Sequence record: SRR31156797_4018
Reading direction: 5' to 3' (one strand)
Length of the DNA: 64,000 bases
Below the pieces are notes generated by a model. That model made no database searches. It was not told the DNA's origin and saw nothing but the letters and a program-made list of their open reading frames with translations. Below are positions 3,182 to 56,372 of this stretch, piece by piece. Numbering within the stretch: position 1 is the stretch's first letter; each line of letters opens with the position of its first letter. Both the position numbers and the translations under genes were made by a program.

Positions 3182-4531
3182 TTAAATCTCAACAGCTTGC
3201 CTTACTAATTTTATTCGCTTATCAATAAAATATATAGTAAATAATGCAGCAACATAAAAGGGTAATAAAGGAATTTTATAACGAACCAGGGCTCCAAAAT
3301 TTGCTGTGGTAAGTCCTACAGAGAATGCAAACAAAAGGGTAAAACCAAAAGCAAAAAGCAATACTGGCTTCTCAAACATAATAGCTATAAATCTTCTGAT
3401 GCCAACTTTAATTAAAACCCAAAACAATAAAATCAACAGGGCTGTATTCTCTATTGCCGAAAGCAACATCACCGGATTTCTAACTTCAAAAATAAATGGC
3501 CGATATAGCCCGGCCGTGGTAGCTGCAGGAAACTTTGAGATGATACTACCCAAATCTGGAGTTAATTCGCCAATATCAAAACTATTTCCTCCATAATAAG
3601 CTCGTGTCAGGTCATCCTGCGTAATTATTGCTTTTTCAAGCAAAGCATCCATAGAAGTGTAATAAGAGCCTACAAATTCACCAATATTAAATATAATATA
3701 CTGACCTAATCCATAAAGCATTAGCGCTACTATAGGTAATACAAGTATGCGTAAAAAAGGACTGCTAAGCTTATTAATATAATGAAATCCCATCCAAATG
3801 AGAATTCCACCCAGAATGGCAAAAAAGATATAGGCTTTAATTGAAATTAATACGTAAACACTTACTACAAGAAAAAATGAATGTACAAGTATTCGTCTCT
3901 TTTTAAAAATAATAAAATAAAAGCAATAAACCGTCCAGCCTGCTGCCGCCATTGTATAAGAGTCTTTCAGCACCCCACTACCCCAAAATGCAACTGAAGG
4001 AATAAAAAGTACAGCAATTGCCAATAACTTATCATTTTTAGGATACATATCCACAAACATCAGATATAATCGCCAAATACCGCTAAAAGTTACTATTGCC
4101 GTCAAAATAGATACTTGCAGAAAACTTCCGGTTGTAAAAAATAAAAGTACAGAAGTAAACCTCGGAACAGTAAATGAATTTGGATCGTGATAGTACCATG
4201 GCCAACCAGTATTATCATTGAATGCACTGAAATTCTCAGGAGTTAGATTATTGGCCAGAATACTAAAATACGCTCGTGTATCTTCAAAAAACAAATTATT
4301 TAAAGCTACTGCGCTATTATAATAACCGGTTGTATCTCCTCCTCCATAATAAAACAGGTAAATCAAGCATAACGCAATTGCTCCTGAAATTTTATATAAT
4401 AAACCATAGTGATAAAAGCGATAAGCTGGATTTTCTTTACGCTTTTTATGACTAATTCTTCTGGCAAAGTACCAGGCAAGAAGTATATAAAATGGAACAA
4501 TAAAAATATCCCAAAACGAGAAATATTCCAT
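3182..4531 (-). CDS. Polytopic membrane protein, possible GT-C-fold glycosyltransferase or polysaccharide polymerase
   Basis: Many TM helices, YYGGGDTTGY loop, GVLKDSY motif, LVRYK near C-terminus; divergent from two GT4 genes. Confidence 0.55.
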   Translation of the reverse strand: MEYFSFWDIFIVPFYILLAWYFARRISHKKRKENPAYRFYHYGLLYKISGAIALCLIYLFYYGGGDTTGYYNSAVALNNLFFEDTRAYFSILANNLTPENFSAFNDNTGWPWYYHDPNSFTVPRFTSVLLFFTTGSFLQVSILTAIVTFSGIWRLYLMFVDMYPKNDKLLAIAVLFIPSVAFWGSGVLKDSYTMAAAGWTVYCFYFIIFKKRRILVHSFFLVVSVYVLISIKAYIFFAILGGILIWMGFHYINKLSSPFLRILVLPIVALMLYGLGQYIIFNIGEFVGSYYTSMDALLEKAIITQDDLTRAYYGGNSFDIGELTPDLGSIISKFPAATTAGLYRPFIFEVRNPVMLLSAIENTALLILLFWVLIKVGIRRFIAIMFEKPVLLFAFGFTLLFAFSVGLTTANFGALVRYKIPLLPFYVAALFTIYFIDKRIKLVRQAVEI

Positions 4532-20039: not shown

Positions 20040-20148
20040 CAAAGTTATATTATTTGATAAATTCCTCTAACTTTTTTAACTAATATTCTGAAATAGGCAG
20101 GTAAAACCATAGAAATGAAGGCATTTTTTTATGGAAATACTATCTTTG
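20040..20148. promoter_or_regulatory. Divergent pair of -7 promoter elements
   Basis: TAACTTTG on minus (20040-47) before FkbM; TATCTTTG on plus (20141-48) before the GT4, which supports the ATG at 20164. Confidence 0.55.
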
Positions 20149-20163
20149 AACGAAAAATCGGAT

Positions 20164-21300
20164 ATGCGCATTGCTGTAAATGTACGTTTGCTTTTAAAAG
20201 ACAGATTAGAGGGAATTGGATGGTTTACTTTTGAAAATCTCAAAAGAATTACACAAGCACACCCTGAGCATGAGTTTCTGTTCATATTCGATCGACCTTA
20301 CGATAAATCATTCATATTCAGCGAAAATATCACACCAATAGTTGTTGGATTGCCAACGCGACATGCCTTTTTGCACATGTTTTGGTTCGAAATACAAATC
20401 CCGCGCATTCTCAAAAAATACAAAGCTGATATTTTCCTTTCACCAGATGGTTTTTTATCCCTCAAAACCAAAGTGCCTCAAATTGGAGTAATTCATGATA
20501 TCAACTTTGCCCACAGACCACAAGACATTCCTGGATTATATCGCAAATATTACAATTACTATTTTCCACGTTTTGCCAAAATAGCCAAACGTCTGGCCAC
20601 AGTTTCAGAATACTCAAAAAATGATATTGCCACCACATATGGAATCGACAAATCAAAAATAGACGTGGTATACAATGGTGCAAATGAAATGTATGTGCCA
20701 ATAAGTGAGGATGAACAAATAAAAACAAGAACACAATTCAGTGATGGCAAACCCTATTTCCTTTTTGTGGGAGCTTTCAGCGCACGTAAAAACATCCACA
20801 ACCTTCTCAAAGCATTTGACCAATTTAAAGCCAACGACAAGCTAGGATTTAAAATAGTTTTAGTTGGTAAACCACTATTCCGAAACGATGACATCAGCAT
20901 TACTCACCAAAACATGCAGTATAAAAACGATGTGCTGTTTTTAGGACGCCAAAACCCGGAAAACCTACACAGACTTTTAGCATCTGCGCACGCATTAACA
21001 TTTGTTCCATTTTTCGAAGGATTTGGTATCCCCGTAGCAGAAGCTATTCAATGTCACACACCTGCCATTTGCAGTAATGTAACTTCAGTACCCGAAGTTG
21101 GTCTAAAGGCCGCACTCTACGTGGATCCGACTAAAGTTGATGAAATAAGCGAAGCCATGTTGAAAATAAGCACAGACAACACCCTTCGCACTGAATTAAT
21201 CGAACATGCCAAGGCACAATCGGGCATTTTCACATGGGATAAATCAGCAGAGAGGTTGTGGGGAACGATTGAAACGGTGATGAAGGAAATTAATGGTTAA
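20164..21300 (+). CDS. GT4-family glycosyltransferase (mannosyltransferase-like)
   Basis: MRIAVNVRLL start, IHD, RKN, FEGFGIPVAEA. Confidence 0.9.
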   Translation: MRIAVNVRLLLKDRLEGIGWFTFENLKRITQAHPEHEFLFIFDRPYDKSFIFSENITPIVVGLPTRHAFLHMFWFEIQIPRILKKYKADIFLSPDGFLSLKTKVPQIGVIHDINFAHRPQDIPGLYRKYYNYYFPRFAKIAKRLATVSEYSKNDIATTYGIDKSKIDVVYNGANEMYVPISEDEQIKTRTQFSDGKPYFLFVGAFSARKNIHNLLKAFDQFKANDKLGFKIVLVGKPLFRNDDISITHQNMQYKNDVLFLGRQNPENLHRLLASAHALTFVPFFEGFGIPVAEAIQCHTPAICSNVTSVPEVGLKAALYVDPTKVDEISEAMLKISTDNTLRTELIEHAKAQSGIFTWDKSAERLWGTIETVMKEING

Positions 21301-21339
21301 TTGTTAATGTTTAATTATCAATGATTAATTATTAAAGAC
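21291..21339 (+). repeat. Degenerate heptamer tandem array spanning the GT4 stop
   Basis: TAATGGT TAATTGT TAATGTT TAATTAT CAATGAT TAATTAT TAAAGAC. Confidence 0.6.
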
Positions 21340-24176: not shown

Positions 24177-24620
24177 ATGCAACAATTTTATCCGGCATTT
24201 TTCACATTCCATATCATATTTAGTATTATATTTTTCTCTGTAGCCATTTTTATTTCAATTTATTCATTCAGAGGCTGGAAAAAAAGATTGAAATTTGGTC
24301 GTTTTGAGAATGTTCTACGAAAAACATTTTTGACACTTCTTATTATTGATCTTTTTTTAGGTATTATTCTTTATTTCTTTTTGAAAAAACCTTACGATAC
24401 AATTACTGCACAAGAAGCCATGCGCTATTCAGCCCTCAGGTTTTGGGCAATTCAGCATTTTTCAAATATGGTTTTTGTGGTTATAGTAAGTCTTATTGGT
24501 AATGTTTTCATAAATCGAACCCTATCGCCAGAAAAGAAGCACAAATACGCATTCCTTTATTTTGGCATTTCAACTTTTATCATTCTGGTTTCTGTAGGAG
24601 TATTTGCATTTGGCAAATAA
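24177..24620 (+). CDS. Hypothetical four-TM membrane protein
   Basis: Four hydrophobic helices; LRFWAIQHF motif; 3' end overlaps acr3 by 64 bp. Confidence 0.7.
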
Positions 24621-25651
24621 TAATACTTCTCCTTAAACCTCAAGGCCACACCAACCAATAAAATCAAAACCGGAACTTCAACCAACGGACCAATTACTGC
24701 TGCAAATGCTTCACCTGAGCTTATTCCAAAAACTGCTACAGCTACAGCAATGGCTAATTCAAAGTTGTTACTAGCTGCTGTAAATGATAAAGTGGTTGTT
24801 TTCTTATAATCGGTTCCCATTTTGCGGCTAATGTAGAACGAAACAAAAAACATTACAACAAAATAGATAATTAAAGGGATAGCTACACGAACTACATCCA
24901 TTGGCAATTTCACAATATACTCACCTTTTAATGAGAACATTACAAGAATTGTAAATAAAAGTGCGATTAATGTAAGCGGGCTGATTTTGGGTATAAACTT
25001 TTGTTGATACCACACCTTGCTTTTAATCTTAATCAGTGAATATCGGGTAATCATTCCTGCAAGAAAAGGAATCCCTAAATAAATGAATACACTTTTGGCA
25101 ATCTCACCCATTGTAATATCAACAGCTGTTCCTTTAATTCCGATCGCCTCAGGTAACCATGAAATAAAGAACCAGGCATACACAGAAAAGAATAATACCT
25201 GAAAAATACTGTTAAAGGCTACCAAACCTGCAGCATATTCATTATCACCCTGAGCAAGGTCGTTCCATACAATCACCATTGCAATACATCTGGCCAATCC
25301 AATCAAAATCAAGCCATACATGTAATGAGGATAATCCTGCAAAAAGACAATTGCCAGTATAAACATTAAAACCGGACCAATAACCCAATTCTGAATTAGC
25401 GAAAGAATGAGTACTTTTTTGTTTCTAAACACGTCACCCATCTCTTCGTATTTGACTTTTGCCAAAGGAGGGTACATCATTACAATCAATCCAATAGCAA
25501 TAGGAATATTGGTAGTTCCACTACTCATACTATCCCAAAAGCTGGCCACATCCGGGAAAAAATGACCTGCGCCTACTCCAATGAGCATAGCGGCAAAGAT
25601 CCAAACAGTTAAATAACGATCTAAAAATTTAAGTCTTGGTGTTGATGGCAT
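24557..25651 (-). CDS. acr3: Acr3-family arsenite efflux transporter
   Basis: [46 protein letters not shown]. Confidence 0.96.
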
Positions 25652-25667
25652 GATTCAAAATACTTGA

Positions 25668-26474
25668 TTATTTGTTCGCAAAAACAGTTATGCTGAAAAT
25701 TCCTGTATTACTAGACCTGAACTGCACCAATTCATCTGAGTTCAGATAATTGAGTAAAATTTCATCAGGTAATTCTATTCTCTTTTCTTTTTGAATAGAA
25801 ATATTTTTAAATCCTGTTTGTGATATTATTTCAATATATTCTTCTTTCTGAATTGCACCAGAAACGCACCCTGCATACATTTCAGCACTTTCTTTTAAAT
25901 TCTCTGGCAGACCTCCTACAATCACAATATCTGATACTGAAAAATGCGCATCATTTTTAAGCACGCGGTAAATCTCGCTAAAAGCTTTCTTTTTATCAGG
26001 CACCAAATTCAATACGCAATTACTAACCACAACATCAACAGATTCAGAATCAATAGGCATTTCCTCGATATCTCCTTTTATAAATTCAACATTATCAAAC
26101 CCTAGTTTTGAAACATTTTCATTAGCTTTTAACAGCATTTCATTTGAAAAATCTAATCCAATCACTTTTCCATTTTCTCCGGTTTCTGCTCTGGCAACAA
26201 AGCAATCATTTCCGGCTCCTGATCCTAAATCTAACACTGTATCACCTTGATTTATTTGTGCAAACTCTGTTGGCAATCCACAACCTAAACTTAAATCTGC
26301 ATCTGCGCTATAACCTTTCAAATTATCATAATTATCGCTCATTATGGTGTAATCCACATCACCACAACATCCAGTGCTTCCACAACATGAACCCTGATTT
26401 TGTTCTTTAGATTGATTTGCAATTTTGTCGTATTTCTCTTTTACGATATCTTTTATATTCTTTTCTATTTTCAT
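25668..26474 (-). CDS. arsM: Arsenite S-adenosylmethionine methyltransferase
   Basis: SCCG, LGCGLP, LDLGSGAGND, SNCVLNL, YAGCVSGA. Confidence 0.93.
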   Translation of the reverse strand: MKIEKNIKDIVKEKYDKIANQSKEQNQGSCCGSTGCCGDVDYTIMSDNYDNLKGYSADADLSLGCGLPTEFAQINQGDTVLDLGSGAGNDCFVARAETGENGKVIGLDFSNEMLLKANENVSKLGFDNVEFIKGDIEEMPIDSESVDVVVSNCVLNLVPDKKKAFSEIYRVLKNDAHFSVSDIVIVGGLPENLKESAEMYAGCVSGAIQKEEYIEIISQTGFKNISIQKEKRIELPDEILLNYLNSDELVQFRSSNTGIFSITVFANK

Positions 26475-26509
26475 AATGATATAGATATTTATCGTTAATA
26501 AGCTTTCTG

Positions 26510-26926
26510 TTATTTCAATTTATCACTGTAAAGTTTGAAGAATGCTTCTTTAATCTCATCTCTTACTCTTCTGAATTCATTCCAAATAAATTCATCTGTT
26601 CCTTCGGCAAAAGAAGGATCATCAAAACCAATATGTAATCTGTTCTTAACTTTACCAATAAAAGCTGGACAAACTTCATTTGCCCCTCCACAAACTGTAA
26701 TAACATAATCCCATTCATCATTCAAATACTTTTCTACAGAGTCGGAAGTATGATGACTAATATCTATGCCTATTTCACTCATTACTTTAACAGCTTTTTG
26801 GTTAAGTTTACCTGAAGCTTCAGTTCCAGCTGAATGAACAATTAGTTTTTCATCGTAAGACTGTAAAAAACCGTGCGCCATCTGGCTGCGACATGAATTT
26901 CCCGTACAAAGGATAAGAACTTTCAT
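26510..26926 (-). CDS. arsC: Thioredoxin-dependent arsenate reductase (LMW-PTP fold)
   Basis: CTGNSCRSQMA; VITVC...CP; FDDP. Confidence 0.93.
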   Translation of the reverse strand: MKVLILCTGNSCRSQMAHGFLQSYDEKLIVHSAGTEASGKLNQKAVKVMSEIGIDISHHTSDSVEKYLNDEWDYVITVCGGANEVCPAFIGKVKNRLHIGFDDPSFAEGTDEFIWNEFRRVRDEIKEAFFKLYSDKLK

Positions 26927-26971
26927 TTTTATTTGAATTATGGTTAATCTCTAATCTTTTTTTCTTGGCAC

Positions 26972-27388
26972 TTAACAATTCGAGCAATCTCCATTACAAC
27001 TATGGCAACCACTTCCTGTTCCAATTATACTTTCATATGGTAATCCCTTCTTTTTCCATGCAAACATACCTCCATCAATATTGTAAGCCCGCTCAAAACC
27101 CTGACGGTTAAGCATATTTACAATCTGAGAACTTCGAATTCCTTCTTTGCAAATCACTACCAATATTTTATCTTTTGGTATTTTATTCAAATTCGTCATA
27201 ATGTTTGACAAGGGTTGAAAAACTACATTTTCAGTATCTACTGATTCAATAGCAAATTCATGATCTTCACGCACATCAAGCAAAATAGCTTCTTTTGATT
27301 CAATAATTTTCCATGCATCTTCTGGTAAAATATGCTCAACACCTGCTAAATGAAACTGCTGGATTTTGGGTTTGTTTAGTATCTCCAT
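26972..27388 (-). CDS. Rhodanese-like protein with Cys-rich tail
   Basis: LLDVRE, active loop CKEGIRS, DGGMFAW; C-terminal CHSCNGDCSNC. Confidence 0.88.
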   Translation of the reverse strand: MEILNKPKIQQFHLAGVEHILPEDAWKIIESKEAILLDVREDHEFAIESVDTENVVFQPLSNIMTNLNKIPKDKILVVICKEGIRSSQIVNMLNRQGFERAYNIDGGMFAWKKKGLPYESIIGTGSGCHSCNGDCSNC

Positions 27389-27413
27389 TTTATAAAATTA
27401 TTAATCCTTTAGG

Positions 27414-28733
27414 TTAAAAAAAGTAACCATAAATAAATCCTGATACAGTTGCCATAACTACCACTAAAAGTACATATACAATTGTTTTTTGAGTACCCAT
27501 AACACCACGAATTACAAGCATATTGGGTAGTGACAGTGAAGGGCCAGCTAACAATAAAGCTAATGCAGGACCTTTACCCATCCCGGCTGCCATCAACCCC
27601 TGCAAAATAGGCACTTCAGTAAGTGTAGCAAAATACATGAATGCCCCTACAATTGAGGCATAAAAATTAGATAGTACAGAGTTTCCTCCAACTAAATCAG
27701 CAATCCAATTTTCCGGTATTATACCTGCCATAGCCACATCATCATGCGTAGAACCCAATAAGAAACCGGCAATTAGAACTCCTATGGCTAAAAGAGGCAT
27801 TATTTGCTTTGTAAAATCCCAAGAAGATAGTGTCCATTCGCGATTATCCTCATCATTTTTATCTGTGAGGGTGATTATACTCAATGATGCAATGGCTACC
27901 AAAACAGGCACCAATGGAGATGTAGACAAAAATGCAGATACTGCAGTTGCAACTGCTCCTAGCATCACATATTTCCAATCGAGCTTAAGTATGCTAATCA
28001 ATGAAAACACCAACATTGCACCAAATGCAGAAGTGATGTACCACTTGTTACTCCATATCCAAAACCAGGTACCGCTTTCAATACCTTCAGCAGGTTTACC
28101 CCAATTAGCAAATACAAGTATTAGCACTAAGGTGAAAAAATGAAAAGAGGTTTGCCATAATGGTCTTTTCTCCGGCATTTGAGGAAAATTCATTTGCTCC
28201 TCACGCTTCTCTTTCTCTTCTTTTCTGTAGATCAATGACATTGCTGAACCAATAACAATAGCAAACATTACAGCTCCAATTATTCGGGCTATTCCCATTT
28301 CAATTCCCAGGATACGGGCAGTAAGTATGATTGCTAATATATTTATGGCCGGGCCGGAATATAAAAATGCAACGGCTGGTCCTAAGCCTGCTCCGCGCTT
28401 ATGAATACTTGAGAAAAGTGGTAAAATTGTACAGCTGCACACTGCGAGTATGGTACCAGAAACTGAAGCAACAGTATAAGATAACCACTTCTTAGCCGAA
28501 GCCCCAAAATACTTCATCACTGCTCCCTGACTTACAAACACTGCAATAACTCCAGCAATAAAAAATGCAGGTAGCAAACACAAAATCACATGTTCTTGTG
28601 CGTACCACTTTGCTAAATCAAGCATAGACATTACTGCTTCTTCAAATCGCAGATTCTCTAACGGTAGGAAATACGCAGCAGTAAAAAATGTTATGATCCA
28701 TGCGAGTATTTTAAATTCTTTTTTGTTCTCCAT
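27414..28733 (-). CDS. arsP: ArsP/DUF318-family permease (organoarsenical efflux)
   Basis: VCSCTILP, AFLYSGPAIN, MYFATLTEVP, GPSLSLP; located in an ars cluster. Confidence 0.8.
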   Translation of the reverse strand: MENKKEFKILAWIITFFTAAYFLPLENLRFEEAVMSMLDLAKWYAQEHVILCLLPAFFIAGVIAVFVSQGAVMKYFGASAKKWLSYTVASVSGTILAVCSCTILPLFSSIHKRGAGLGPAVAFLYSGPAINILAIILTARILGIEMGIARIIGAVMFAIVIGSAMSLIYRKEEKEKREEQMNFPQMPEKRPLWQTSFHFFTLVLILVFANWGKPAEGIESGTWFWIWSNKWYITSAFGAMLVFSLISILKLDWKYVMLGAVATAVSAFLSTSPLVPVLVAIASLSIITLTDKNDEDNREWTLSSWDFTKQIMPLLAIGVLIAGFLLGSTHDDVAMAGIIPENWIADLVGGNSVLSNFYASIVGAFMYFATLTEVPILQGLMAAGMGKGPALALLLAGPSLSLPNMLVIRGVMGTQKTIVYVLLVVVMATVSGFIYGYFF

Positions 28734-28751
28734 TATTGTTTTATTTGAACC

Positions 28752-28803
28752 ATTAAGATTAGTTAATAAGTTAATTGAGTTAATTTGTTGATTTGGTTAA
28801 TTA
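28752..28803. repeat. Short-repeat array (GTTAATTGAG type) downstream of the four-helix-bundle gene
   Basis: TAAGTTAATTGAGTT (28767-81) is the exact reverse complement of 29319-33. Confidence 0.75.
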
Positions 28804-29175
28804 AGTTCTGTTTATTTCTTTCTGTTTTTTCAAATAAGAAATATACCCATTTAATAATCTCAAACATTGATTATACAATGTTCGATATTCTCCAAGTTTA
28901 TGCTCAGTGATGTAATTTTCGTCAAATGCACAAATCAAATGATCCAGAGTCTCCATTAGCGATCCTCTTGATTGTCGACAAAACTGGATATTCTCCTGAT
29001 AATGAAACCGTCCATGTCCTTCAGCAATATTTGCTGTTACAGATCTGCTACTTCGGAGAATTTGATCAACTAATTTATACTTCTCCTCCTTTGGAAAGGA
29101 TTTTACCAAATTAGAAATCTCTTTTCTGAATAATCGACAATGCTTATAAAGCTCTAAATCTTCAAAACTTTTCAT
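28801..29175 (-). CDS. Four-helix-bundle protein (23S rRNA intervening-sequence protein / Avd-like family)
   Basis: SFEDLELY, FPKEEKYKLVDQILRSSRSVTANIAEG, SRGSLMET motifs. Confidence 0.93.
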   Translation of the reverse strand: MKSFEDLELYKHCRLFRKEISNLVKSFPKEEKYKLVDQILRSSRSVTANIAEGHGRFHYQENIQFCRQSRGSLMETLDHLICAFDENYITEHKLGEYRTLYNQCLRLLNGYISYLKKQKEINRT

Positions 29176-29317
29176 ACTTGTTTTTTATAAATATTAGTAA
29201 TTAAGTTGAATAAGTAATATATTGACTAGGGTTTCGAAAAACAATCCAAACACAAGTCATCTTCATTCTAAAAAAGAAATTTATATCTTAAATCATTGAA
29301 AATACTTAATACACAGA

Positions 29318-29385
29318 CAACTCAATTAACTTAATTACCTAATAACTCAATTAACTCACTCAACTCAATACTCTCAATTACTAAA
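29318..29385. repeat. Degenerate 8-9-mer array (AACTCAATT) upstream of the four-helix-bundle gene
   Basis: AACTCAATT AACTTAATT ACCTAAT AACTCAATT AACTCACT CAACTCAAT...; abuts the upstream gene stop at 29386. Confidence 0.8.
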
Positions 29386-30087
29386 TCAAAAATTAATAAT
29401 TATCACATAGTAAATTCCTACACCAATAAACACAACCGCAATTACACGCCTAAACCATTTCTCAAAAATTTTAAGACGGTTATAGAAACCTCCAACTCCC
29501 GAAACGGCAAATGCAATTAACCATGCAAAAATAATAACCGGTATCCCTGTAGCAATTGCAAAAACAATGGGTAAATATAATCCTGAAGCGCTGGCAACAG
29601 TCATGGGAATCAACATTCCAAAGTAGACAACTCCACTGTATGGACAAAACGCCAGAGCGAAAATAATTCCCAGCAAAAAGGCATCCAGATATGATTTAGA
29701 TTTTTTCTCCTCAATTCTCTTACCCAGGTTTCCGATGCCAGGTAAATTAAACTTGATTACATCAAGCATAAAAATACCAATCAATATAAGCAATGGACCT
29801 AAAACCTTTTCTCCATATTTTGAAAACCAACCAGATAACTCTAACTGATCAGCACCAAAATAGATAATTAAAGCTAAAACAGTATATGAAAAAGCTCGCC
29901 CAAGTGTGTAGATCAATCCATTTATAAACACCCGCTTCTTATTTTCCACATCTTTGCTAATAAACCCAATGGCTGTAATATTGGTTGCCATAGGACATGG
30001 ACTAATTGCTGTTAAAAGTCCGAGCAAAAAAGCCGTAAAAAGTGGAAAAGAGCTATTACTGACCAGATCAGTTAAAAAAGCCTCCAT
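29386..30087 (-). CDS. CcdA/DsbD-like membrane protein (ArsG-family permease)
   Basis: LLTAISPCPMATN and ALAFCPYSG Cys motifs; ars context. Confidence 0.82.
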   Translation of the reverse strand: MEAFLTDLVSNSSFPLFTAFLLGLLTAISPCPMATNITAIGFISKDVENKKRVFINGLIYTLGRAFSYTVLALIIYFGADQLELSGWFSKYGEKVLGPLLILIGIFMLDVIKFNLPGIGNLGKRIEEKKSKSYLDAFLLGIIFALAFCPYSGVVYFGMLIPMTVASASGLYLPIVFAIATGIPVIIFAWLIAFAVSGVGGFYNRLKIFEKWFRRVIAVVFIGVGIYYVIIINF

Positions 30088-30092
30088 AGTAA

Positions 30093-30524
30093 TTACAGAT
30101 TCTTAACAGGTTCTATTTTAGATTTAATAAGCTCTCTCAGCTTATCACCTTGTTCACGACCATACATAAACGCTTCTGGTGTAATATCAATTCTCTGATC
30201 GCCTCTTTGAATAATTAAGGCTGAATTACTCACGCCCAATTCTTCGGCTTTCTTTTTGCCATCTTCTTCCTCAAGATTAAGTGAAGTGAAATTTATAGAT
30301 CCATTATAAAAATCTTTAATAGCTTTAGATGAAACACCTTCAACAGCTAAGCAAGTTTCGCAGCGACGAGTTGAATGAAAATAATACACAGCAACTTTGC
30401 TGGCATCTATTGGAGCTTGTTCAACTGATTCTTTATCGGCTTTTTTATCTGAAGTATTAGTATTGCCACAAGCCATAAAAAATGCCATTAAAGCAATGAT
30501 AATAAGACTATTTACAATTTTCAT
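30093..30524 (-). CDS. Thioredoxin-fold lipoprotein (ArsF-like)
   Basis: Lipobox FMAC; YYFHSTRRCETC. Confidence 0.78.
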   Translation of the reverse strand: MKIVNSLIIIALMAFFMACGNTNTSDKKADKESVEQAPIDASKVAVYYFHSTRRCETCLAVEGVSSKAIKDFYNGSINFTSLNLEEEDGKKKAEELGVSNSALIIQRGDQRIDITPEAFMYGREQGDKLRELIKSKIEPVKNL

Positions 30525-30526
30525 AA

Positions 30527-30766
30527 TTATTGATTTTGAGTGATTATTTTTTTCATTTCTTCCATAGATGGCGCTTTACCAGCTACTACAATTTTATTAT
30601 CAATTATAATTGCTGGAGTGCGGGAAACTCCATAACTCATAATATCCATAATGTCTTCAACTTTTATAACATCAGCATCAACTCCAAGCTCTGCAACTGC
30701 ATCGCGTGTGTTTTGCTCTAATGTTTTACATTTAGCACAACCTGTTCCTAGTACTTTAATTTCCAT
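30527..30766 (-). CDS. Small redox-active disulfide protein (thioredoxin family)
   Basis: MEIKVLGTGCAKC; YGVSRTPA. Confidence 0.9.
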   Translation of the reverse strand: MEIKVLGTGCAKCKTLEQNTRDAVAELGVDADVIKVEDIMDIMSYGVSRTPAIIIDNKIVVAGKAPSMEEMKKIITQNQ

Positions 30767-30794
30767 GATGATAAATATTTAATTAATTTCGTAT

Positions 30795-30811
30795 TTCGCA
30801 AAACTACGAAC
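30795..30811 (-). promoter_or_regulatory. ArsR-type operator palindrome overlapping an internal -7 promoter
   Basis: TTCGCAAAACTACGAAC, near-identical to 31140-56; minus strand contains TAGTTTTG. Confidence 0.7.
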
Positions 30812-30829
30812 ATCAAATGCAAAAAAATA

Positions 30830-31138
30830 TTACAATCCTAAATGCTTCTTAAACAAGCGCTGAGCTTCTTCCCAATTTTCTCGATTGACACAATATTTAA
30901 TCTTAGGAGCTTCCGTTTGCCCCTGAATTAGCCCAGCATCCTTAAGCTCTTTCAAATGTTGTGACAAAGTTGATTTAGCTATAGGCAGTACTTCTGTGAG
31001 ATCTCCACTATAACAGCAACTTTGATTGGCTAATAATTCCAACACATATGCTCTTACCGGATGTCCCATTGCTTTGGCATAACGAGCAAGTTTTTTTTGC
31101 TCATCTGTAATAGGATCTGCTTGCATTTTAAGTTTCAT
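30830..31138 (-). CDS. arsR: ArsR/SmtB-family repressor (alternative start 31126)
   Basis: AKAMGHPVR, CCYSGDL, STLSQHLKELKDAGLI. Confidence 0.92.
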   Translation of the reverse strand: MKLKMQADPITDEQKKLARYAKAMGHPVRAYVLELLANQSCCYSGDLTEVLPIAKSTLSQHLKELKDAGLIQGQTEAPKIKYCVNRENWEEAQRLFKKHLGL

Positions 31139-50288: not shown

Positions 50289-51131
50289 TTAATATGACCA
50301 AAGGTCTTGCTCTCTATCAAAAATTTCTCCTTTAATTTTTTGTGATTCCCATAATGCCATTCTACCATCTCTGAACTGATCAACATTACGATCATAAATA
50401 TTAGATTCTTTTACAATATAACTATCAAAGAATCTTTTAAAGAAAATATCATCATAAGTTCTTCTTTGAGCATCATTATATCTGTTAAAAACTTCATGAT
50501 TTGCCAAAATTGGTCGGATTGCAGGGAAATATGCCCAAAAAGCTCTTCCATACCTAATCTCGTCAGTATTTTTGTCTCTATACATACGAATCGGCATAAT
50601 ACCTAATATTCTGACCTCCATCTTTGAGCGCTGCTTGTCAAAGAACCATTCTTCTTTCAACCAGATTTGTTTAACTTCACCATAGTCAATAGGTTTGTTA
50701 ATCATCTTCTTAATATAATTACCCTGTCCATCAGGAATACTATCTTCAATCATTCCAGCTTCAAAGTTTTTTTCTATTTCTGTTGAAGTCAAAATTGATG
50801 TAAACCTATCATTTTCAGATGCATCATAAAGAACAACTCCTTCATGGGTTTGACCATAAACCAAAAGGTTTGTTAGGTTCATTCTTTCATTAATGCGTTC
50901 AATTGGGTAATAAAAATGAAAGTTCATTTTTTGTCTGAGGTCAATACTTCTCCAAACCCGTTTTTTCCACATCACATCTGCTTCACGAAGCTGTGAATAA
51001 GGGATTGGCCTTCTACTAGGTACATGTTCTTTTTCATATATTCCATCAAGAACTTGTGCAGATGCTTTTTCTTGTGGTGCAATCACAAATAAGAAAGCTA
51101 ATGCTAAACCAAACGAAATAAGTTTTTTCAT
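50289..51131 (-). CDS. gldN: T9SS/gliding motility protein GldN (PorN)
   Basis: READVMWKKRVWRSIDL; KEEWFFDKQRSKMEVRILG; operon position. Confidence 0.92.
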   Translation of the reverse strand: MKKLISFGLALAFLFVIAPQEKASAQVLDGIYEKEHVPSRRPIPYSQLREADVMWKKRVWRSIDLRQKMNFHFYYPIERINERMNLTNLLVYGQTHEGVVLYDASENDRFTSILTSTEIEKNFEAGMIEDSIPDGQGNYIKKMINKPIDYGEVKQIWLKEEWFFDKQRSKMEVRILGIMPIRMYRDKNTDEIRYGRAFWAYFPAIRPILANHEVFNRYNDAQRRTYDDIFFKRFFDSYIVKESNIYDRNVDQFRDGRMALWESQKIKGEIFDREQDLWSY

Positions 51132-51146
51132 ATGATTAAATTTAAT

Positions 51147-52754
51147 CTAATTAATATCAAAAATTAATGGACTCAATTGTTTAGTCCCGTCAGGCCCCTT
51201 GGCCTTAATATCTGTAATAATAAGTTTTTGTCCTCTACCAAGTTTTTTAATTTTATTCAATGCGCGTGTACTAAACTGACTACCTTTTACATCAATCTGC
51301 TCTGTAAATTTTCCTTCCTGTACAAGCACCCTAAATTCGGTTACATTATATTTTATATTCTCCATAATAAATCCTTCCAATACGGCACTAATACCAGAGA
51401 TAAAATTCAAGCGGCCTTCTAAAATTTCACCACTAGATATTTTAAAAGGTTCTAGTTTTGGAGTTGGAGGTGGAATCATTTTAACACTAAACTCGCTACT
51501 TCCAATTCTTTTAATGTTACCATCGATTTCTGCACTTAAGCTAACTACAATTTTTCCACCTCTTTTTTGTGGCTTAATTGCTTTTCCTCCTTGATAATTT
51601 ATAATATCAGCATTAGATGCATTCACACGAAGCTTATCTCTTGTTAGACCAGGAACAGAATATTCTAATGGATTAGGGACACCATAATAAAACACTCTAT
51701 TAGCGCTAGCACTGATAATAGCAGTAGGTCTTTCAACGCGGTATTCAGATTCGAAAGGATAATACTTTGTCTCACCAGTTGGGTCTTGCATCGAAATTAA
51801 CCCTCCCCATTTAACATCCTGAGGTGAATTAAGCACTTTACTATATATACCCTTTCCTTCTTCAATTTCAAGTGTTTCAAAATCACCTACCATTTGATAT
51901 TTGCCATCGCCTAATGATTCATATTCGCCAACATGAATTGTAGGGAACTGCGTTGTATCTTGCGCTGCAATAAAAACCTCGGCAGAATATTCACTACCGG
52001 TTAATACATAATTACTTTTCATTTTTACAACAGGCTCAAGTTTATTAAACTTAAAGTCCTGAGCACTAATTTGGCCATAAAAGTAGCGAACAATATCAGC
52101 TTCAGAGTTTCTAATATCGGTTTGCATTTTTGTGAGCATAGTAACAACTCCAACTAATGGAATATGTTCAAAGTTCTGAGAAACCCATGTTTGATCTGTT
52201 CCATCTGGTAAGGGTGGAGGATTTTCTGTGTTAAGGTTCTTTTCAATGGCAGCTACCAATGTAGGGTGATCTTCATCAACATTACTCAGGAGGAAATCGC
52301 GAAAATTATCAATTTTTTCCTTTAGTTCTTTACCTCGACCTTGAGTTACCATTACCTGCGCGCCAATATTTGAGTCATCCTTGGCTTTAATTTCCATGGC
52401 AACAACCTTTCCGTCAACAATAGCTTCAGCATCTTCACCGTCGGAAGTTTTAACAACTTCAATTTTACAGTCATTAATAAAATCACTTATATCGTCAGCT
52501 CTTTTACGAACCTCTTTTGCTAAATTGTTCCATTTACCAACTTTAGCTTCATTAAGGGCTGCCTGACTTTCCAACTCAGCATAAATGTTTTTGTTTTTCT
52601 CATTGAAGTTTTCAACAGTGGTAGTAAGACTATCATTAACTAAGACAAAAGAGTCCAATACCTCCTTGGATACGTTCAATGCCAGCATTGCCGTAAGGAA
52701 TAAGTACATCATTCCAATCATCTTCTGCCTGGGGGTTTCTTTGCCGCCTGCCAT
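51147..52754 (-). CDS. gldM: T9SS/gliding motor protein GldM (PorM)
   Basis: MAGGKETPRQKMIGMMYLFLTAMLALNVS. Confidence 0.95.
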   Translation of the reverse strand: MAGGKETPRQKMIGMMYLFLTAMLALNVSKEVLDSFVLVNDSLTTTVENFNEKNKNIYAELESQAALNEAKVGKWNNLAKEVRKRADDISDFINDCKIEVVKTSDGEDAEAIVDGKVVAMEIKAKDDSNIGAQVMVTQGRGKELKEKIDNFRDFLLSNVDEDHPTLVAAIEKNLNTENPPPLPDGTDQTWVSQNFEHIPLVGVVTMLTKMQTDIRNSEADIVRYFYGQISAQDFKFNKLEPVVKMKSNYVLTGSEYSAEVFIAAQDTTQFPTIHVGEYESLGDGKYQMVGDFETLEIEEGKGIYSKVLNSPQDVKWGGLISMQDPTGETKYYPFESEYRVERPTAIISASANRVFYYGVPNPLEYSVPGLTRDKLRVNASNADIINYQGGKAIKPQKRGGKIVVSLSAEIDGNIKRIGSSEFSVKMIPPPTPKLEPFKISSGEILEGRLNFISGISAVLEGFIMENIKYNVTEFRVLVQEGKFTEQIDVKGSQFSTRALNKIKKLGRGQKLIITDIKAKGPDGTKQLSPLIFDIN

Positions 52755-52765
52755 AATATATCAGC

Positions 52766-53998
52766 TTAATCGTTTACATTCAAGTTGAATGAAGAAAGCA
52801 TATTGCCATAAACATTATTCAATGATGCTAAATTATCATTCAATTTATTCAATTGCTCTTTATATTTTTGAGTATCATCAACAGCAGCACTCATATTTTC
52901 AATCGCCTCATTTGCTTTAGCATATAACTGTTGTGACTGTTCATTTTGTTGATTCAGGTTGTCTCTTTGCAACTCATATATTGAATTAAGGGCAGTAAGA
53001 TGTTTATTTTGAATATCTAATTGTTCAATATATGACTCATTGCCACCTTTCATGGTTTCCATGTTCTTATTCATTTCGTTAACCATTTCTTGATAGCTTT
53101 GTCCAAGTTGCTCTCCAGTTGACCTTACTGATTCAATAATTTGCTGTCCGGCACTAGTGGCAGCTTCCATCAATGATTCTGAACTCTTTCTGGCTAAACC
53201 AGCTATTTCATCACCAGATTCAGCTAGTCTAGTTGCTGCAGCTTGACTAGCATCGGTTATTTGCTGAGCCATGTCAGCACCACCTTGCTCAATCTTTTCA
53301 GCAGCCTTCAAAGTAGCTTCACTTAATGATCCGGTTGAAGATTGAATAACTTCATTCGATGAATTGTAAGTATCCGTAAGCTGTTTAGCTGATTCAGAAG
53401 CTGCCTGCATATTTACAGCATAATTGTCAGTTGCAATGACAGCATCTTGCATCTTATTTAAATCCTGAGCAGTATTGGCGAGTCGCTCAATACCTTCACC
53501 CATTTTAACAAAAAGTTCTGGACCTAATTCAGCCTTTTCTAATAACTCATCAAAACGCTCCAGAGCGGTAGAACGATGACCAGCAGCCATTCCAGCAGCA
53601 GCACCTGCTGCAACCATACCGGATTCAACACCTGCTCCAGCAGCAATACCTGCTCCACCTGATGACTCTGGCAAAGGTTGCTGCGATACATTGAATAATC
53701 GACTATCTCTTTGCGGTGAATAATCTTGTTGAGGCAGATCATCATCTAACTCATTAGTCATACCTGCTAATTCAGGATAAACTAGAGTCCAATCTGGCTC
53801 TTCATGTAGTGGCTCAAATGCAGACAAGAAGAAAATTAGCACCTCTGTGCCCATTCCAGCTACAAGCATGGGACCTGCTCCAGGAAAGTGCATAATTTTA
53901 AATAGTGCTCCGGCAAGTACCACTGAGGCACCCCAACCGTACACATATTTCATTATTGTCTTATACGTTTTACTTTCAACAAATTCTGAGAGCGTCAT
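52766..53998 (-). CDS. gldL: T9SS/gliding motor protein GldL (PorL), long form
   Basis: YGWGASVVLAGALFKIMH, TEVLIFFLSAFEP, WTLVYPEL; C-terminal LNNVYGNML. Confidence 0.93.
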   Translation of the reverse strand: MTLSEFVESKTYKTIMKYVYGWGASVVLAGALFKIMHFPGAGPMLVAGMGTEVLIFFLSAFEPLHEEPDWTLVYPELAGMTNELDDDLPQQDYSPQRDSRLFNVSQQPLPESSGGAGIAAGAGVESGMVAAGAAAGMAAGHRSTALERFDELLEKAELGPELFVKMGEGIERLANTAQDLNKMQDAVIATDNYAVNMQAASESAKQLTDTYNSSNEVIQSSTGSLSEATLKAAEKIEQGGADMAQQITDASQAAATRLAESGDEIAGLARKSSESLMEAATSAGQQIIESVRSTGEQLGQSYQEMVNEMNKNMETMKGGNESYIEQLDIQNKHLTALNSIYELQRDNLNQQNEQSQQLYAKANEAIENMSAAVDDTQKYKEQLNKLNDNLASLNNVYGNMLSSFNLNVND

Positions 53999-54009
53999 AT
54001 ATCAAAGTT

Positions 54010-55395: not shown

Positions 55396-55412
55396 ATTTA
55401 GATATCATAAAA

Positions 55413-56372
55413 TTACAAAAATCTCACACTTTTAAACACTCTATCGTCTTTTTCTACATCAACTTTAAAAACATATTGCACTGTAAATTCGAATGAACCG
55501 CTTGTGCTATATACCATTTGAGAGGTTGGAATATCATATGCCAACCCCACATTTAATCCTTCAATTAATTCTGCTCCAGCCATAATTGAAACTGCATCAA
55601 TTATTCTGTAACCTACACCACCCCAAAACCTGTTCTTAAAATGCAACACACTGTTAAACGCCAATTGCGGCGAAGAACCAGAGGTGTAAACCATCACAGA
55701 GGGTTCAATTTCAAATAGCGGATTTGCTAGTTGGTAATTGTATCCAAAAGTAAGAAAAGAACCTATCTTGTAAAAAGGATAGCCAATCTCTTCACCATTG
55801 TTTAGCTGAAAATCACTGCCATCCGTATCTTTATATTTTAGTTTTGGTTGTGTCATATGACTAAACGATAGTCCAAAATATAAATTATCTGTTTTATAAA
55901 AAGCACCCAGGCTTAAATCAAAATAAATGGGTTGGTCATCGGCATTTGGCCCAGTCCATTCTCCTGTTTGGGTTTGCCAATCAGGTGAGTTTAATGACTG
56001 ACTTGCAAATCCAAACCCAGCTCCTACGCCCAATTTTCCTTCGGCTATCTCTTTTTGAAATGCATAATTTAAGCCTATTGCTATATTGTTTTCAAAACCT
56101 GCTTCGTCGTTCATCAAGGTTAACCCAACTCCGTGTTTTTGTCCAAAAAGCTTAAATGGCATGTGCGCATTAAAATTCTGTGTATTCGGAGCTCCTTCAA
56201 ATCCCATCCATTGATTCCTCACAACAGTATTTACTGTAATTCCGTCATTCATACCAGCATAACCCGGATTAACCATCATGTGATTAAACTGAAACAATGT
56301 AGTGTGGGGAATATTTTGCCCCATCATACATATCGGTATAATCGCTATCACAACTAAAAATAGTTTTCTCAT
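55413..56372 (-). CDS. porP: PorP/SprF-family T9SS beta-barrel
   Basis: NPGYAG, RNQWMGFEGAP, GLAYD, SGSFE; upstream of gldK. Confidence 0.88.
   Translation of the reverse strand: MRKLFLVVIAIIPICMMGQNIPHTTLFQFNHMMVNPGYAGMNDGITVNTVVRNQWMGFEGAPNTQNFNAHMPFKLFGQKHGVGLTLMNDEAGFENNIAIGLNYAFQKEIAEGKLGVGAGFGFASQSLNSPDWQTQTGEWTGPNADDQPIYFDLSLGAFYKTDNLYFGLSFSHMTQPKLKYKDTDGSDFQLNNGEEIGYPFYKIGSFLTFGYNYQLANPLFEIEPSVMVYTSGSSPQLAFNSVLHFKNRFWGGVGYRIIDAVSIMAGAELIEGLNVGLAYDIPTSQMVYSTSGSFEFTVQYVFKVDVEKDDRVFKSVRFL

What the first reader, a model, noticed from the sequence alone, without database searches (positions are those of the whole stretch)
28752..29385. Avd/23S-IVP-like gene inserted in the ars operon, with complementary repeat flanks that could loop it out of the mRNA
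Seen: the four-helix-bundle gene sits co-directionally between the ArsG-like gene and arsP. Its upstream array (29318-85) and downstream array (28752-803) are inverted relative to each other: 29319-33 vs 28767-81 is an exact 15-bp match and 29343-56 vs 28769-82 an exact 14-bp match. A third tract just before its start (29193-207) can pair with 29328-43, which overlaps the first arm, so the pairings may be alternatives. Known: this family was first found in stem-closed, RNase III-excised 23S rRNA intervening sequences and is homologous to the RNA-binding Avd protein of diversity-generating retroelements. Inference: a minimal selfish or regulatory cassette that inserts right after stop codons and is looped out, processed or switched at RNA level. 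No transposase or reverse transcriptase is present in the window.
Basis: partly seen in the sequence, partly recalled or inferred. Interest (0 to 1): 0.75.

Follow-up and report, generated by a model that had tools for sequence, protein, structure and literature searches.

The report
Stem-closed four-helix-bundle gene cassette
A small gene of the "23S rRNA intervening-sequence protein" family sits inside an arsenic-resistance operon, bracketed by two mirror-image arrays of short tandem repeats that can pair and loop it out, and this same layout surrounds most sampled members of the family in several bacterial phyla.

Summary
The PF05635/TIGR02436 gene (28801-29175, minus strand) lies co-directionally between arsG and arsP. 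It is flanked by inverted arrays of 8-9-nt units, with exact 15- and 14-nt complementary matches. The predicted closing stem has 61 base pairs (duplex -45 kcal/mol against -21.9±3.8 for shuffles).

It is not a local oddity. In 59 family loci from Bacteroidota, the gene's own flanks were the best complementary partners in 36, against 0 of 45 control genes. The repeat unit differs from locus to locus. The same layout occurs on cyanobacterial and Gemmatimonadota plasmids, and in a true 23S rRNA intervening sequence (Azospirillum).

Cassettes are co-directional with the upstream gene in 54 of 55 cases and fill the spacer from stop codon to next start codon. The protein is under purifying selection (dN/dS 0.06-0.23). 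Most orthologous arsG-arsP junctions lack the gene.

Heptamer arrays were found almost only in genomes that carry the family. Five of five family-rich genomes had no reverse transcriptase match.

Best reading: an intervening-sequence-type cassette, co-transcribed and closed by an RNA stem that RNase III probably cuts. RNA processing could not be tested, because no RNA data exist for this organism.

The parts
29386..30087 (-). arsG-family permease gene. Its stop codon (29386-29388) directly abuts the upstream repeat array.
   Evidence: NF040495 ArsG, 319.2 bits, cut-off 200; DsbD_2, E 6.6e-22
29313..29385 (-). Upstream (5') arm: array of about 7 degenerate 8-9-nt units (TTGAGTTAA-like on the sense strand).
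   Evidence: TRF 29319-29389, period 9, 7.1 copies; inverted repeats I1-I5, I9; 5' side of the 61-bp closing stem
29193..29215 (-). Pre-start tract: one to two units of the downstream-arm type, 18 nt before the ATG. It can pair with the upstream arm instead.
   Evidence: I6, 19 nt at 84%; exact 10-mer shared with 28798-28807 (D7); duplex -24.4 against -15.6±2.9 kcal/mol. A long version of this tract precedes the ATG in L009, L041, L054 and L061.
28801..29175 (-). Four-helix-bundle protein gene (124 aa), PF05635 / TIGR02436.
   Evidence: AF2 model pLDDT 97.3 with four helices; TM 0.88/0.94 to PDB 2GSC; family-conserved Q38, S45, N49, E52 and E75 present
28752..28811 (-). Downstream (3') arm: array of about 5 units complementary to the upstream arm. 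It overlaps the stop codon and ends 18 nt before the arsP start.
   Evidence: TRF 28758-28807, period 8-9; 3' side of the closing stem. A related metagenome contig shows 10- and 8-nt deletions here.
27414..28733 (-). arsP-type permease gene, next gene of the operon.
   Evidence: ArsP_1, E 1e-70; 76-84% identical orthologues in 80 loci
24557..31138 (-). Host operon: arsR, thioredoxin-like gene, arsF-like, arsG, [cassette], arsP, rhodanese, arsC, arsM, ACR3. All on the minus strand.

Best explanation
This is an intervening-sequence-type cassette. A conserved, functional four-helix-bundle gene (PF05635) is bracketed by two inverted arrays of short tandem repeats, and the cassette occupies the whole arsG-arsP spacer.

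It has little or no room for its own promoter, so it is transcribed as part of the ars operon mRNA. In that transcript the two arrays pair into a roughly 60-bp imperfect stem. The stem closes off the gene and brings the arsG stop codon and the arsP start codon back together.

This is the same construction as the PF05635-bearing intervening sequences of 23S rRNA, whose stems RNase III cuts. The most likely fate here is therefore RNase III cleavage in the stem. That would release the small gene's mRNA and leave the operon halves held or capped by the stem remnants.

Shown: the architecture, its statistics, its family-wide and cross-phylum generality, its identity of design with an rRNA IVS, co-orientation, purifying selection, and presence/absence at the orthologous junction.

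Inferred: that pairing happens in RNA in vivo, that RNase III cuts it, and what this does to arsP expression. What the protein does is not known. The most plausible role is binding the repeat-built nucleic acid as a pentamer, by analogy with Avd.
For: - Window stem.
- Locus-specific complementarity: the gene's own flanks rank first among swapped partners in 20 of 30 loci and in 16 of 29 loci sampled across the phylum, against 0 of 45 control genes. Unit sequences differ between loci while the arms stay complementary.
- Tandem arrays: upstream in 49 of 59 loci, downstream in 45 of 59, both in 39 of 59.
- Outside Bacteroidota: 8 of 10 plasmid loci score above the control maximum of 28 (with a slightly longer downstream window than the controls). 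One of these, L148, lies inside a 23S rRNA gene (Rfam LSU, 2125 bits).
- Literature (passages read): the Coxiella IVS has a 28-bp terminal stem cut by RNase III in vitro, ends mapped within the stem, and 2-3 tandem heptamers at the 5' cleavage site (PMC4990558).
- Dependence on host transcription: the upstream neighbour is co-directional in 54 of 55 cases, against a baseline of 128 of 164 (p = 2e-5). The array starts within 15 nt of the upstream stop codon in 36 of 43 cases and ends within 30 nt of the next start codon in 32 of 37.
- RNase III gene present in 5 of 5 relatives.
- Protein under purifying selection: dN/dS 0.057-0.233 in the 6 of 8 pairs that were not saturated.
- Fold like the RNA-binding Avd.
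Against: - There are no RNA data for this organism, so pairing and cleavage are untested.
- Mismatches in the arms show no excess of sense-strand G·U-compatible changes: 35 sense-compatible, 48 antisense-compatible, 82 transversions. Complementarity may therefore be kept at the DNA level.
- Stems are imperfect (74-96% identity in the best arm alignments).
- Some loci break the rule. Four of 59 have no detectable array on either side (L083, L116, L123, L128). L120, L117 and L142 have direct rather than inverted arrays.
- Three of the 8 cyanobacterial plasmid copies lie antisense to their neighbours.
- A stem that sequesters the arsP start region, or a cut that leaves a 5'-monophosphate, could harm arsP expression.
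- In Coxiella the authors concluded that the ORF is probably not expressed (PMC4990558, abstract and passages).
Confidence: 0.55

Rival explanations
1. DNA-level element. The inverted arrays are terminal repeats (or cruciform-forming ends) of a mobile or copy-and-lose cassette, and the four-helix-bundle protein acts in trans on these ends. Gene-less inverted arrays would be its non-autonomous derivatives, as MITEs are to transposons. This is not exclusive of RNA pairing.
For: - Patchy occupancy of the arsG-arsP junction: an IVP gene in 7 of 73 defined junctions plus the window. The IVP-B type needs at least 5 changes on the host tree. The window (type A) is sister to L015 (type B) with SH-aLRT 100.
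- Arms without a gene: L013, L002, L017, L028, L042, L010.
- 4-19 copies per genome, and paralogues share arm type.
- Heptamer arrays were found almost only in genomes that carry the family: 0,0,0,1,0,0,0 against 10,9,3,10,10 per roughly 200 kb, p = 0.0015. Only 5 of 41 arrays lie next to an IVP gene.
- No G·U signature in the arms.
Against: - No nuclease or recombinase domain is recognisable in a 124-aa helical bundle.
- No target-site duplication could be defined.
- Copies within a genome are not near-identical, and each locus has its own unit.
- Within a type, cassette divergence tracks host divergence, with dS above 0.85 or saturated, so there is no sign of recent movement.
- The 54 of 55 co-orientation is not expected for a purely DNA-level element.
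Confidence: 0.2
2. The arrays are periodic binding sites for the cassette's own protein (a pentamer like Avd), used for autoregulation or RNA protection. Complementarity of the two sides would be a by-product of carrying the same sites in mirrored orientation.
For: - Repeat type co-varies with protein subfamily: types A and B, L101/L105, L086/L081, L094/L095/L102, L099/L103.
- A third tract of the same units sits directly before the ATG in several loci; direct-repeat scores reach 53 or more in 8 of 30 loci.
- PDB relatives 2GSC and 2RLD each have 5 chains per entry.
- The fold matches Avd within the DGR ribonucleoprotein.
- Invariant polar residues Q38 and E75.
Against: - Units differ even among proteins that are 75-85% identical (L061, L041, L054, L074), which argues against strict sequence recognition.
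- Most arrays in the genomes are far from any family gene.
- No binding data exist.
Confidence: 0.12
3. An ars-specific regulatory switch. Alternative pairings (upstream arm with the pre-start tract, or with the downstream arm) would tune arsP expression in response to arsenic.
For: Two alternative pairings exist in the window. Filled junctions lack the TTCG-N5-10-CGAA palindrome present in 28 of 46 short junctions, so regulation of arsP must differ there.
Against: The same cassette architecture sits in unrelated operons, including ABC transporters, cas genes, ribonucleotide reductase and 23S rRNA. It is therefore not an ars device.
Confidence: 0.04
4. Chance complementarity of AT-rich low-complexity spacers.
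For: The window is 35% G+C and the arms are AT-rich.
Against: Shuffle and genomic controls; 0 of 45 control genes; recurrence at 36 of 59 independent-unit loci.
Confidence: 0.01

Closest known systems
23S rRNA intervening sequences carrying an S23p/PF05635 ORF (Coxiella, Leptospira; here also Azospirillum L148)
   Same: Same protein family. The ORF is enclosed by terminal inverted repeats that form a closing stem. The arms are built of short tandem units: GACAGAT heptamers in Coxiella (PMC4990558, passages), and GAGGACG/GATGACA-like units in L148. The element is transcribed as part of a host RNA.
   Different: The host RNA is a protein-coding operon mRNA, not rRNA (no Rfam match). Units are 8-9 nt here. 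The protein is clearly under purifying selection, whereas the Coxiella ORF was judged expendable. RNase III cleavage is not shown here.
Avd, accessory protein of diversity-generating retroelements (PDB 4DWL, 8UBE)
   Same: Four-helix-bundle fold: Foldseek E 1.5e-2, TM 0.79/0.91. It is described as related by others (PMC10053308, passage).
   Different: 10% identity, and no sequence-profile hit at E of 1 or below. No reverse transcriptase in the window (54 ORFs) or in 5 of 5 family-rich genomes. No template/variable repeat pair was seen.
Over-represented heptamer tandem repeats of Xanthomonas (GGGAATC) and Nostoc (GGGGAYT), and the tandem heptanucleotides of Calothrix
   Same: Intergenic arrays of roughly 7-nt units, often as convergent inverted pairs (70-75 pairs per Xanthomonas genome), variable in length, function unknown (PMC4692102, passages). 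Both genera carry PF05635 genes (2GSC is from Xanthomonas; Nostoc accounts for 18 of 41 plasmid records).
   Different: That paper does not mention the protein family (0 occurrences of 'S23') and studies G-quadruplex potential. The window's arms have no G-runs. A link between these repeats and PF05635 is my inference, tested only in Bacteroidota and on 10 plasmid loci.
MITEs and other TIR-bounded small elements
   Same: Inverted ends, intergenic location, gene-less derivatives.
   Different: The ends are tandem arrays with locus-specific units rather than conserved transposase-binding TIRs. There are no near-identical copies (the window's 13-mer occurs only in this cassette). No transposase is present, and no target duplication could be defined.
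RNase III-processed stems in polycistronic mRNAs (phage T7 early RNAs; cited in PMC4990558's reference list, otherwise recalled)
   Same: A long stem inside a polycistronic transcript that separates cistrons.
   Different: Here the stem encloses a whole selfish-looking gene, and its arms are tandem repeats.

Membership tests
PF05635 / TIGR02436 four-helix-bundle (23S rRNA IVP, 'S23p') proteins | Profile match above the curated cut-offs over the full length | tested here: met
   PF05635 110.3 bits (cut-off 33.8), profile positions 1-106 of 106; TIGR02436 102.9 bits (cut-off 24)
PF05635 / TIGR02436 four-helix-bundle (23S rRNA IVP, 'S23p') proteins | Four-helix-bundle fold like the solved members | tested here: met
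   AF2 pLDDT 97.3, helices 8-24, 29-54, 59-85, 91-123; 2GSC TM 0.88/0.94; 2RLD TM 0.79/0.86
PF05635 / TIGR02436 four-helix-bundle (23S rRNA IVP, 'S23p') proteins | Conserved polar positions of the family | tested here: met
   Q38 and E75 invariant; S45, N49 and E52 at 90% or more in 53-60 sequences; all present in the window protein
rRNA intervening sequence (IVS) | Inserted in a helix of 23S (or 16S) rRNA | tested here: not met
   Lies between arsG and arsP; no Rfam family within 28300-29800 at E of 1 or below
rRNA intervening sequence (IVS) | Terminal inverted repeats forming a stem that closes the element | tested here: met
   61 long-range pairs, -45.0 kcal/mol against -21.9±3.8
rRNA intervening sequence (IVS) | Excision from the host RNA by RNase III | not testable with these tools
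   No RNA run listed. RNase III gene present in 5 of 5 relatives, which is only permissive.
DGR accessory protein Avd | Encoded beside a DGR reverse transcriptase with template/variable repeats | tested here: not met
   No RVT family in 54 window ORFs; RVT_1 in 0 of 5 family-rich genomes
DGR accessory protein Avd | Avd-like fold | tested here: met
   4DWL_D E 1.5e-2, TM 0.79/0.91, 10% identity
MITE / TIR transposon | Many near-identical copies with conserved terminal inverted repeats | tested here: not met
   The arm 13-mer occurs only in this cassette within the window; arm units differ at nearly every locus
MITE / TIR transposon | Target-site duplication | tested here: inconclusive
   The arrays abut the coding sequences and no unambiguous boundary could be set by comparing empty and filled junctions
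Heptamer tandem-repeat arrays (STRR-like / GGGAATC-like) | Intergenic tandem arrays of 7-nt units, often in convergent pairs | tested here: met
   For the family: periods 7, 14, 21 or 28 in 51 of 94 arrays, and 8, 16 or 24 in 22 of 94. The window itself has 8-9-nt units, so it is a variant.
CRISPR array | Identical repeats separated by unique spacers of similar length | tested here: not met
   Units are head-to-tail without spacers

The most novel reading that the evidence does not exclude
PF05635 cassettes and the gene-less heptamer/octamer hairpins and arrays scattered through the same genomes may be one system. It would be a transposase- and reverse-transcriptase-independent class of selfish element, in which the four-helix-bundle pentamer recognises repeat-built arms and is needed for their spread, upkeep or harmless processing.

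The gene-bearing copies would make themselves invisible to the host operon. They fold out of the mRNA so that the upstream stop codon and the downstream start codon are re-joined at the base of the stem (median 3 nt and 11 nt from the arrays). This would allow RNase III excision or coupling and shunting of ribosomes across the stem.

If true, it would explain three things: the function of the long-unexplained 'S23p' family, the 23S rRNA intervening sequences, and the unexplained heptamer repeats of cyanobacteria and Xanthomonas.
Probability: 0.3. Interest if true: 0.9.

Novelty: new variant of a known kind. Interest (0 to 1): 0.74.

Why it matters
The PF05635 family is very common: 52 of 61 sampled Bacteroidota genomes carry it, with up to 19 matches each, and it is frequent on cyanobacterial plasmids. 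It has two crystal structures but no known function.

The IVS design known from rRNA turns out to be the general habitat of this family inside ordinary operons. This gives the family a concrete, testable molecular context: repeat-built stems, RNase III, and binding of the protein to the arms.

It also ties three separate puzzles together: rRNA intervening sequences, the over-represented heptamer repeats, and the reported association of '23S rRNA IVP' with CRISPR adaptation modules.

Practically, such cassettes can split operon transcripts, and their flanking arrays can be mistaken for CRISPR-like repeats in annotation.

I found no paper describing this layout in the six searches made for it.

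Tried and rejected
- **RNA evidence.** No RNA holder was listed for this stretch. The laid runs were DNA contigs only.
- **Rfam.** No family matched in 28300-29800 at E of 1 or below.
- **G·U wobble test for the transcribed strand.** No signal: 35 sense-compatible, 48 antisense-compatible, 82 transversions.
- **Retroelement or telomerase-like origin of the arrays.** Rejected. RVT_1 was found in 0 of 5 family-rich genomes and in 3 of 5 family-lacking ones.
- **G-quadruplex reading.** The window's arms have no G-runs.
- **CRISPR reading.** The units have no spacers between them.
- **First array metric.** Counting any period that is a multiple of 7 was confounded by long 21/42-nt degenerate arrays in G046. 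It was replaced by unit = 7 with at least 3.5 copies.
- **Extending the genome sample.** G012 and G036 contigs were too short to use. These are not corrected for phylogeny, and two of the five rich pieces (G057, G049) were chosen on contigs known to hold family genes.
- **Promoter scan.** Not run, because the tool's sigma-70 consensus does not cover Bacteroidota promoters.
- **Whole-genome survey of the window's own genome.** Impossible, because no genome is held.
- **Closed or unavailable sources.** Ralph & McClelland 1993 is not held and is cited only through PMC4990558. Supplements of the papers were not seen; those of PMC4692102 (repeat lists with neighbouring genes) could bear on whether the link to PF05635 genes was visible there.
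Full report
**1. The observation**

On the minus strand the window carries an ars operon:
- arsR, 30830-31138
- thioredoxin-like gene, 30527-30766
- arsF-like gene, 30093-30524
- arsG, 29386-30087
- a 124-aa PF05635/TIGR02436 gene, 28801-29175
- arsP, 27414-28733
- rhodanese, arsC, arsM and ACR3

The 210-nt spacer before the small gene begins, directly after the arsG stop codon, with an array of about 7 degenerate 8-9-nt units. The 67-nt spacer after the gene is an array of the complementary units.

An exact inverted match this long arose in 1 of 1000 shuffles and at 1 of 2000 random places with the same geometry. Folded as RNA, the region closes the whole gene with 61 long-range pairs. Mean pair probability is 0.76, and the duplex is -45.0 kcal/mol against -21.9±3.8 for shuffles.

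**2. The orthologous junction**

ArsP orthologues (76-84% identical) brought in 80 loci, mostly from Bacteroidales/Marinilabiliales MAGs and isolates. An adjacent co-directional arsG could be assigned in 73 of them.

- The junction is 135 nt or shorter in 46 of the 73. Of these, 28 hold a TTCG-N5-10-CGAA palindrome.
- A PF05635 gene sits in the junction in 7 of the 73: L003, L009, L015, L041, L054, L061 and L074. All are flanked by inverted arrays and none has the palindrome.
- Two protein types occur. Type A is in the window and L003 (71% identical). Type B is in the other six (28-32% identical to A).

I built a tree of ArsG+ArsP with 65 rows. I left out 7 loci without an adjacent arsG, 5 with gaps over 1 kb and 4 with truncated arsG. 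On this tree the window is sister to L015 (SH-aLRT 100) yet carries the other type, and type B needs at least 5 changes.

Within a type, protein identity tracks host identity, for example 0.85 against 0.86 and 0.71 against 0.79. Synonymous sites are near or at saturation. The cassettes are therefore old residents that are lost or exchanged, not fresh insertions.

Arms without a gene remain in L013 (a 51-nt junction made of A-type units), L002, L017, L028, L042 and L010. A 93%-similar metagenome contig carries the window's cassette with 10- and 8-nt deletions in the downstream array, which suggests the arrays change length in steps of roughly one unit.

**3. The layout is a property of the family**

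PF05635 is present in 5 of 5 relatives' genomes (4-11 matches) and in 52 of 61 genomes sampled across the phylum (up to 19 matches).

I extracted 36 distinct genes from the first set and 31 from the second. I dropped those under 100 aa or with short flanks, which left 30 and 29.

I scored 250 nt upstream against the reverse complement of 150 nt downstream:
- The gene's own pair ranked first among all swapped partners in 20 of 30 and in 16 of 29. Most of the rest ranked 2nd to 5th, because orthologous cassettes share units.
- For 45 other genes of the window the own pair never ranked first. Own mean was 19.0, swapped mean 18.8, maximum 28.
- 35 of the 59 family loci exceed that maximum.

TRF finds tandem arrays upstream in 49 of 59, downstream in 45 of 59 and on both sides in 39 of 59. 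The period is 7, 14, 21 or 28 in 51 of 94 arrays, and 8, 16 or 24 in 22 of 94.

The unit is different at almost every locus while the two sides stay complementary. Examples are GATCATA, CAGAGATC, GACGCGA, GTGGTAA and TTGAGTTA.

The samples are not independent, because they include paralogues and orthologues.

**4. Beyond Bacteroidota, and the link to rRNA**

tblastn of the window protein against plasmids found 41 records, among them Nostoc 18, Calothrix 4 and Riemerella 4. Of 10 loci fetched, 8 score above 28 (this used a 200-nt downstream window). They include heptamer arrays such as GGGAGTA, GACAGGT and AGCTAAA in cyanobacteria, and a Gemmatimonadota plasmid.

L148 (an Azospirillum lipoferum plasmid) lies inside a 23S rRNA gene. 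Its arms are tandem GAGGACG/GATGACA-like units.

For the Coxiella IVS, the passages I read report the following (PMC4990558):
- a 28-bp terminal stem
- cleavage by RNase III in vitro
- ends mapped in the stem
- 2-3 tandem GACAGAT heptamers, with the 5' cut at the first repeat

The rRNA IVS and the operon cassettes are thus one design.

**5. Placement**

- The upstream neighbour is co-directional in 54 of 55 cases and the downstream neighbour in 54 of 59. The baseline for other adjacent pairs in the same loci is 128 of 164 (p = 2e-5 and 0.006).
- The upstream array starts within 15 nt of the upstream stop codon in 36 of 43 cases (median 3 nt; the search began 10 nt inside the gene).
- The downstream array ends within 30 nt of the next start codon in 32 of 37 cases (median 11 nt).
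- In many loci only 20-40 nt separate the array from the ATG, which leaves little room for a promoter.

The cassette therefore fills the spacer, and when the stem forms the host stop and start codons are re-joined. A neutral alternative is that arrays simply expand until they meet constrained sequence.

**6. The protein**

- dN/dS is 0.057-0.233 in the 6 of 8 pairs that were not saturated.
- Q38 and E75 are invariant. S45, N49 and E52 are conserved at 90% or more.
- The AF2 model (pLDDT 97.3) is a four-helix bundle.
- Foldseek matches: 2GSC at TM 0.88/0.94; 2RLD at 0.79/0.86; Avd 4DWL at 0.79/0.91 with 10% identity, E 1.5e-2.
- A sequence profile finds 2GSC and 2RLD, each with 5 chains per entry, but not Avd.

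**7. Arrays genome-wide**

In 877 kb anchored on arsP rather than on the family, 17 of 164 arrays lie within 300 nt of the 10 family genes. That neighbourhood is 1.1% of the sequence.

I counted heptamer arrays (unit 7, at least 3.5 copies) per roughly 200 kb:
- Seven genomes without a PF05635 match gave 0, 0, 0, 1, 0, 0, 0.
- Five genomes with 9-19 matches gave 10, 9, 3, 10, 10 (one-sided Mann-Whitney p = 0.0015).

This is not corrected for phylogeny. The G057 and G049 pieces were chosen on contigs that hold family genes, whereas the G044, G033 and G060 pieces were chosen blind.

In the rich genomes only 5 of 41 arrays are within 120 nt of a family gene. Many others are gene-less hairpins or solo arrays.

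RVT_1 is found in 0 of 5 rich genomes and 3 of 5 lacking ones, so no reverse transcriptase is involved.

Heptamer repeats, often in convergent pairs, are reported as over-represented and unexplained in Xanthomonas and Nostoc (PMC4692102, passages). Both genera carry the family.

**8. Mechanism**

Best reading (0.55): a co-transcribed, stem-closed cassette of the IVS type, cut by RNase III.

- Shown: everything in sections 1-7.
- Inferred: pairing in RNA, cleavage, and the effect on arsP.
- Against: there are no RNA data; the arms show no G·U bias (35, 48, 82); and there are exceptions without arrays or with direct arrays.

Rivals: a DNA-level element whose ends are the arrays (0.2, not exclusive); arrays as binding sites for the protein (0.12); an ars-specific switch (0.04); chance (0.01).

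**9. Novelty**

Six searches found no paper that links this family, outside rRNA, to inverted tandem-repeat flanks. The known parts are:
- the rRNA IVS (PMC4990558)
- the fold relation to Avd (PMC10053308, passage)
- the heptamer repeats (PMC4692102)

[quoted passage not shown] I found the gene between cas6 and cas4 (L144, L147) and between cmr2 and cmr3 (L146). That fits a hitch-hiking cassette.

**10. Limits**

- No genome is held for the window.
- There are no RNA runs.
- Paper supplements were not seen.
- Ralph & McClelland 1993 and Mazel 1990 are known to me only by recall or second-hand citation.

Noticed in passing
L004-L077 arsG-arsP junctions (e.g. L006:2723-2780); absent in window 28734-29385: 28 of 46 short arsG-arsP junctions hold a palindrome TTCG-N5-10-CGAA, usually GTTCGT..ACGAAC, preceded by AAAAATTT. 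It is probably an operator or internal promoter for arsP. None of the 7 cassette-filled junctions has it, and neither does the window.
   Followed up: partly
L001:5604-5869, L019:3712-4022, L039:5691-6000, L040:5704-6000, L044:5713-6000, L022:4890-5199: Six junctions hold a different insert: a roughly 70-aa Cys-rich ORF (CYCK..ACTGN.C..LNP.G.CC motif), apparently interrupted in L022. No family search was run on it.
   Followed up: no
L040:4609-4983: A PF05635 gene sits one junction further upstream (between the arsF-like gene and arsG) in a locus whose arsG-arsP junction holds the Cys-rich ORF. Its flanks are only weakly complementary (score 28).
   Followed up: no
L144:1201-1560, L147:1195-1563, L146:1192-1548: On cyanobacterial plasmids the family gene lies inside cas operons (cas6-gene-cas4/cas1d; cmr2-gene-cmr3), with heptamer arrays around it. 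This may explain the published association of '23S rRNA IVP' with CRISPR adaptation modules.
   Followed up: partly
G005:C56:123564-126550 (L081, L086, L096): Three family cassettes, each with its own arrays, are interleaved with what look like ABC-transporter genes within 3 kb.
   Followed up: no
L041:5367-5539: The spacer upstream of the type-B gene holds a diverged copy of that gene's own 3' end and downstream sequence. It looks like the remnant of a second, tandem cassette.
   Followed up: no
L142:966-1185 and 1597-1800: In Oscillatoria nigro-viridis the gene is flanked by long G-rich arrays (GGGAGAG/TGGGAGA-like) in direct, not inverted, orientation, and it lies antisense to its neighbours.
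   Followed up: no
L009:4215-4260 and 4453-4489; L071:4276-4305 and 4421-4489: Gene-less inverted pairs of 16-nt-period arrays in other spacers of ars loci, for example between the arsF-like gene and arsG in L009.
   Followed up: partly
L198:900-1300 (G046:C25:160900-161300): A genome without a PF05635 match has long degenerate 21/42-nt tandem arrays that open spurious 124-aa ORFs on both strands. This is a different kind of repeat.
   Followed up: partly
window 21289-21335: An AT-rich 7/14-nt tandem repeat (ATTAATG-like, 6.7 copies) starts at the stop codon of the glycosyltransferase gene 20131-21300. No family gene is nearby, and I did not look for a partner array.
   Followed up: no
window 50289-56372: The window's context is chromosomal: gldN, gldM, gldL, a FGE-sulfatase-domain (GldK-like) gene and porP/sprF of the gliding/type IX secretion apparatus. 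Elsewhere it holds cytochrome bd oxidase and polysaccharide synthesis genes.
   Followed up: no
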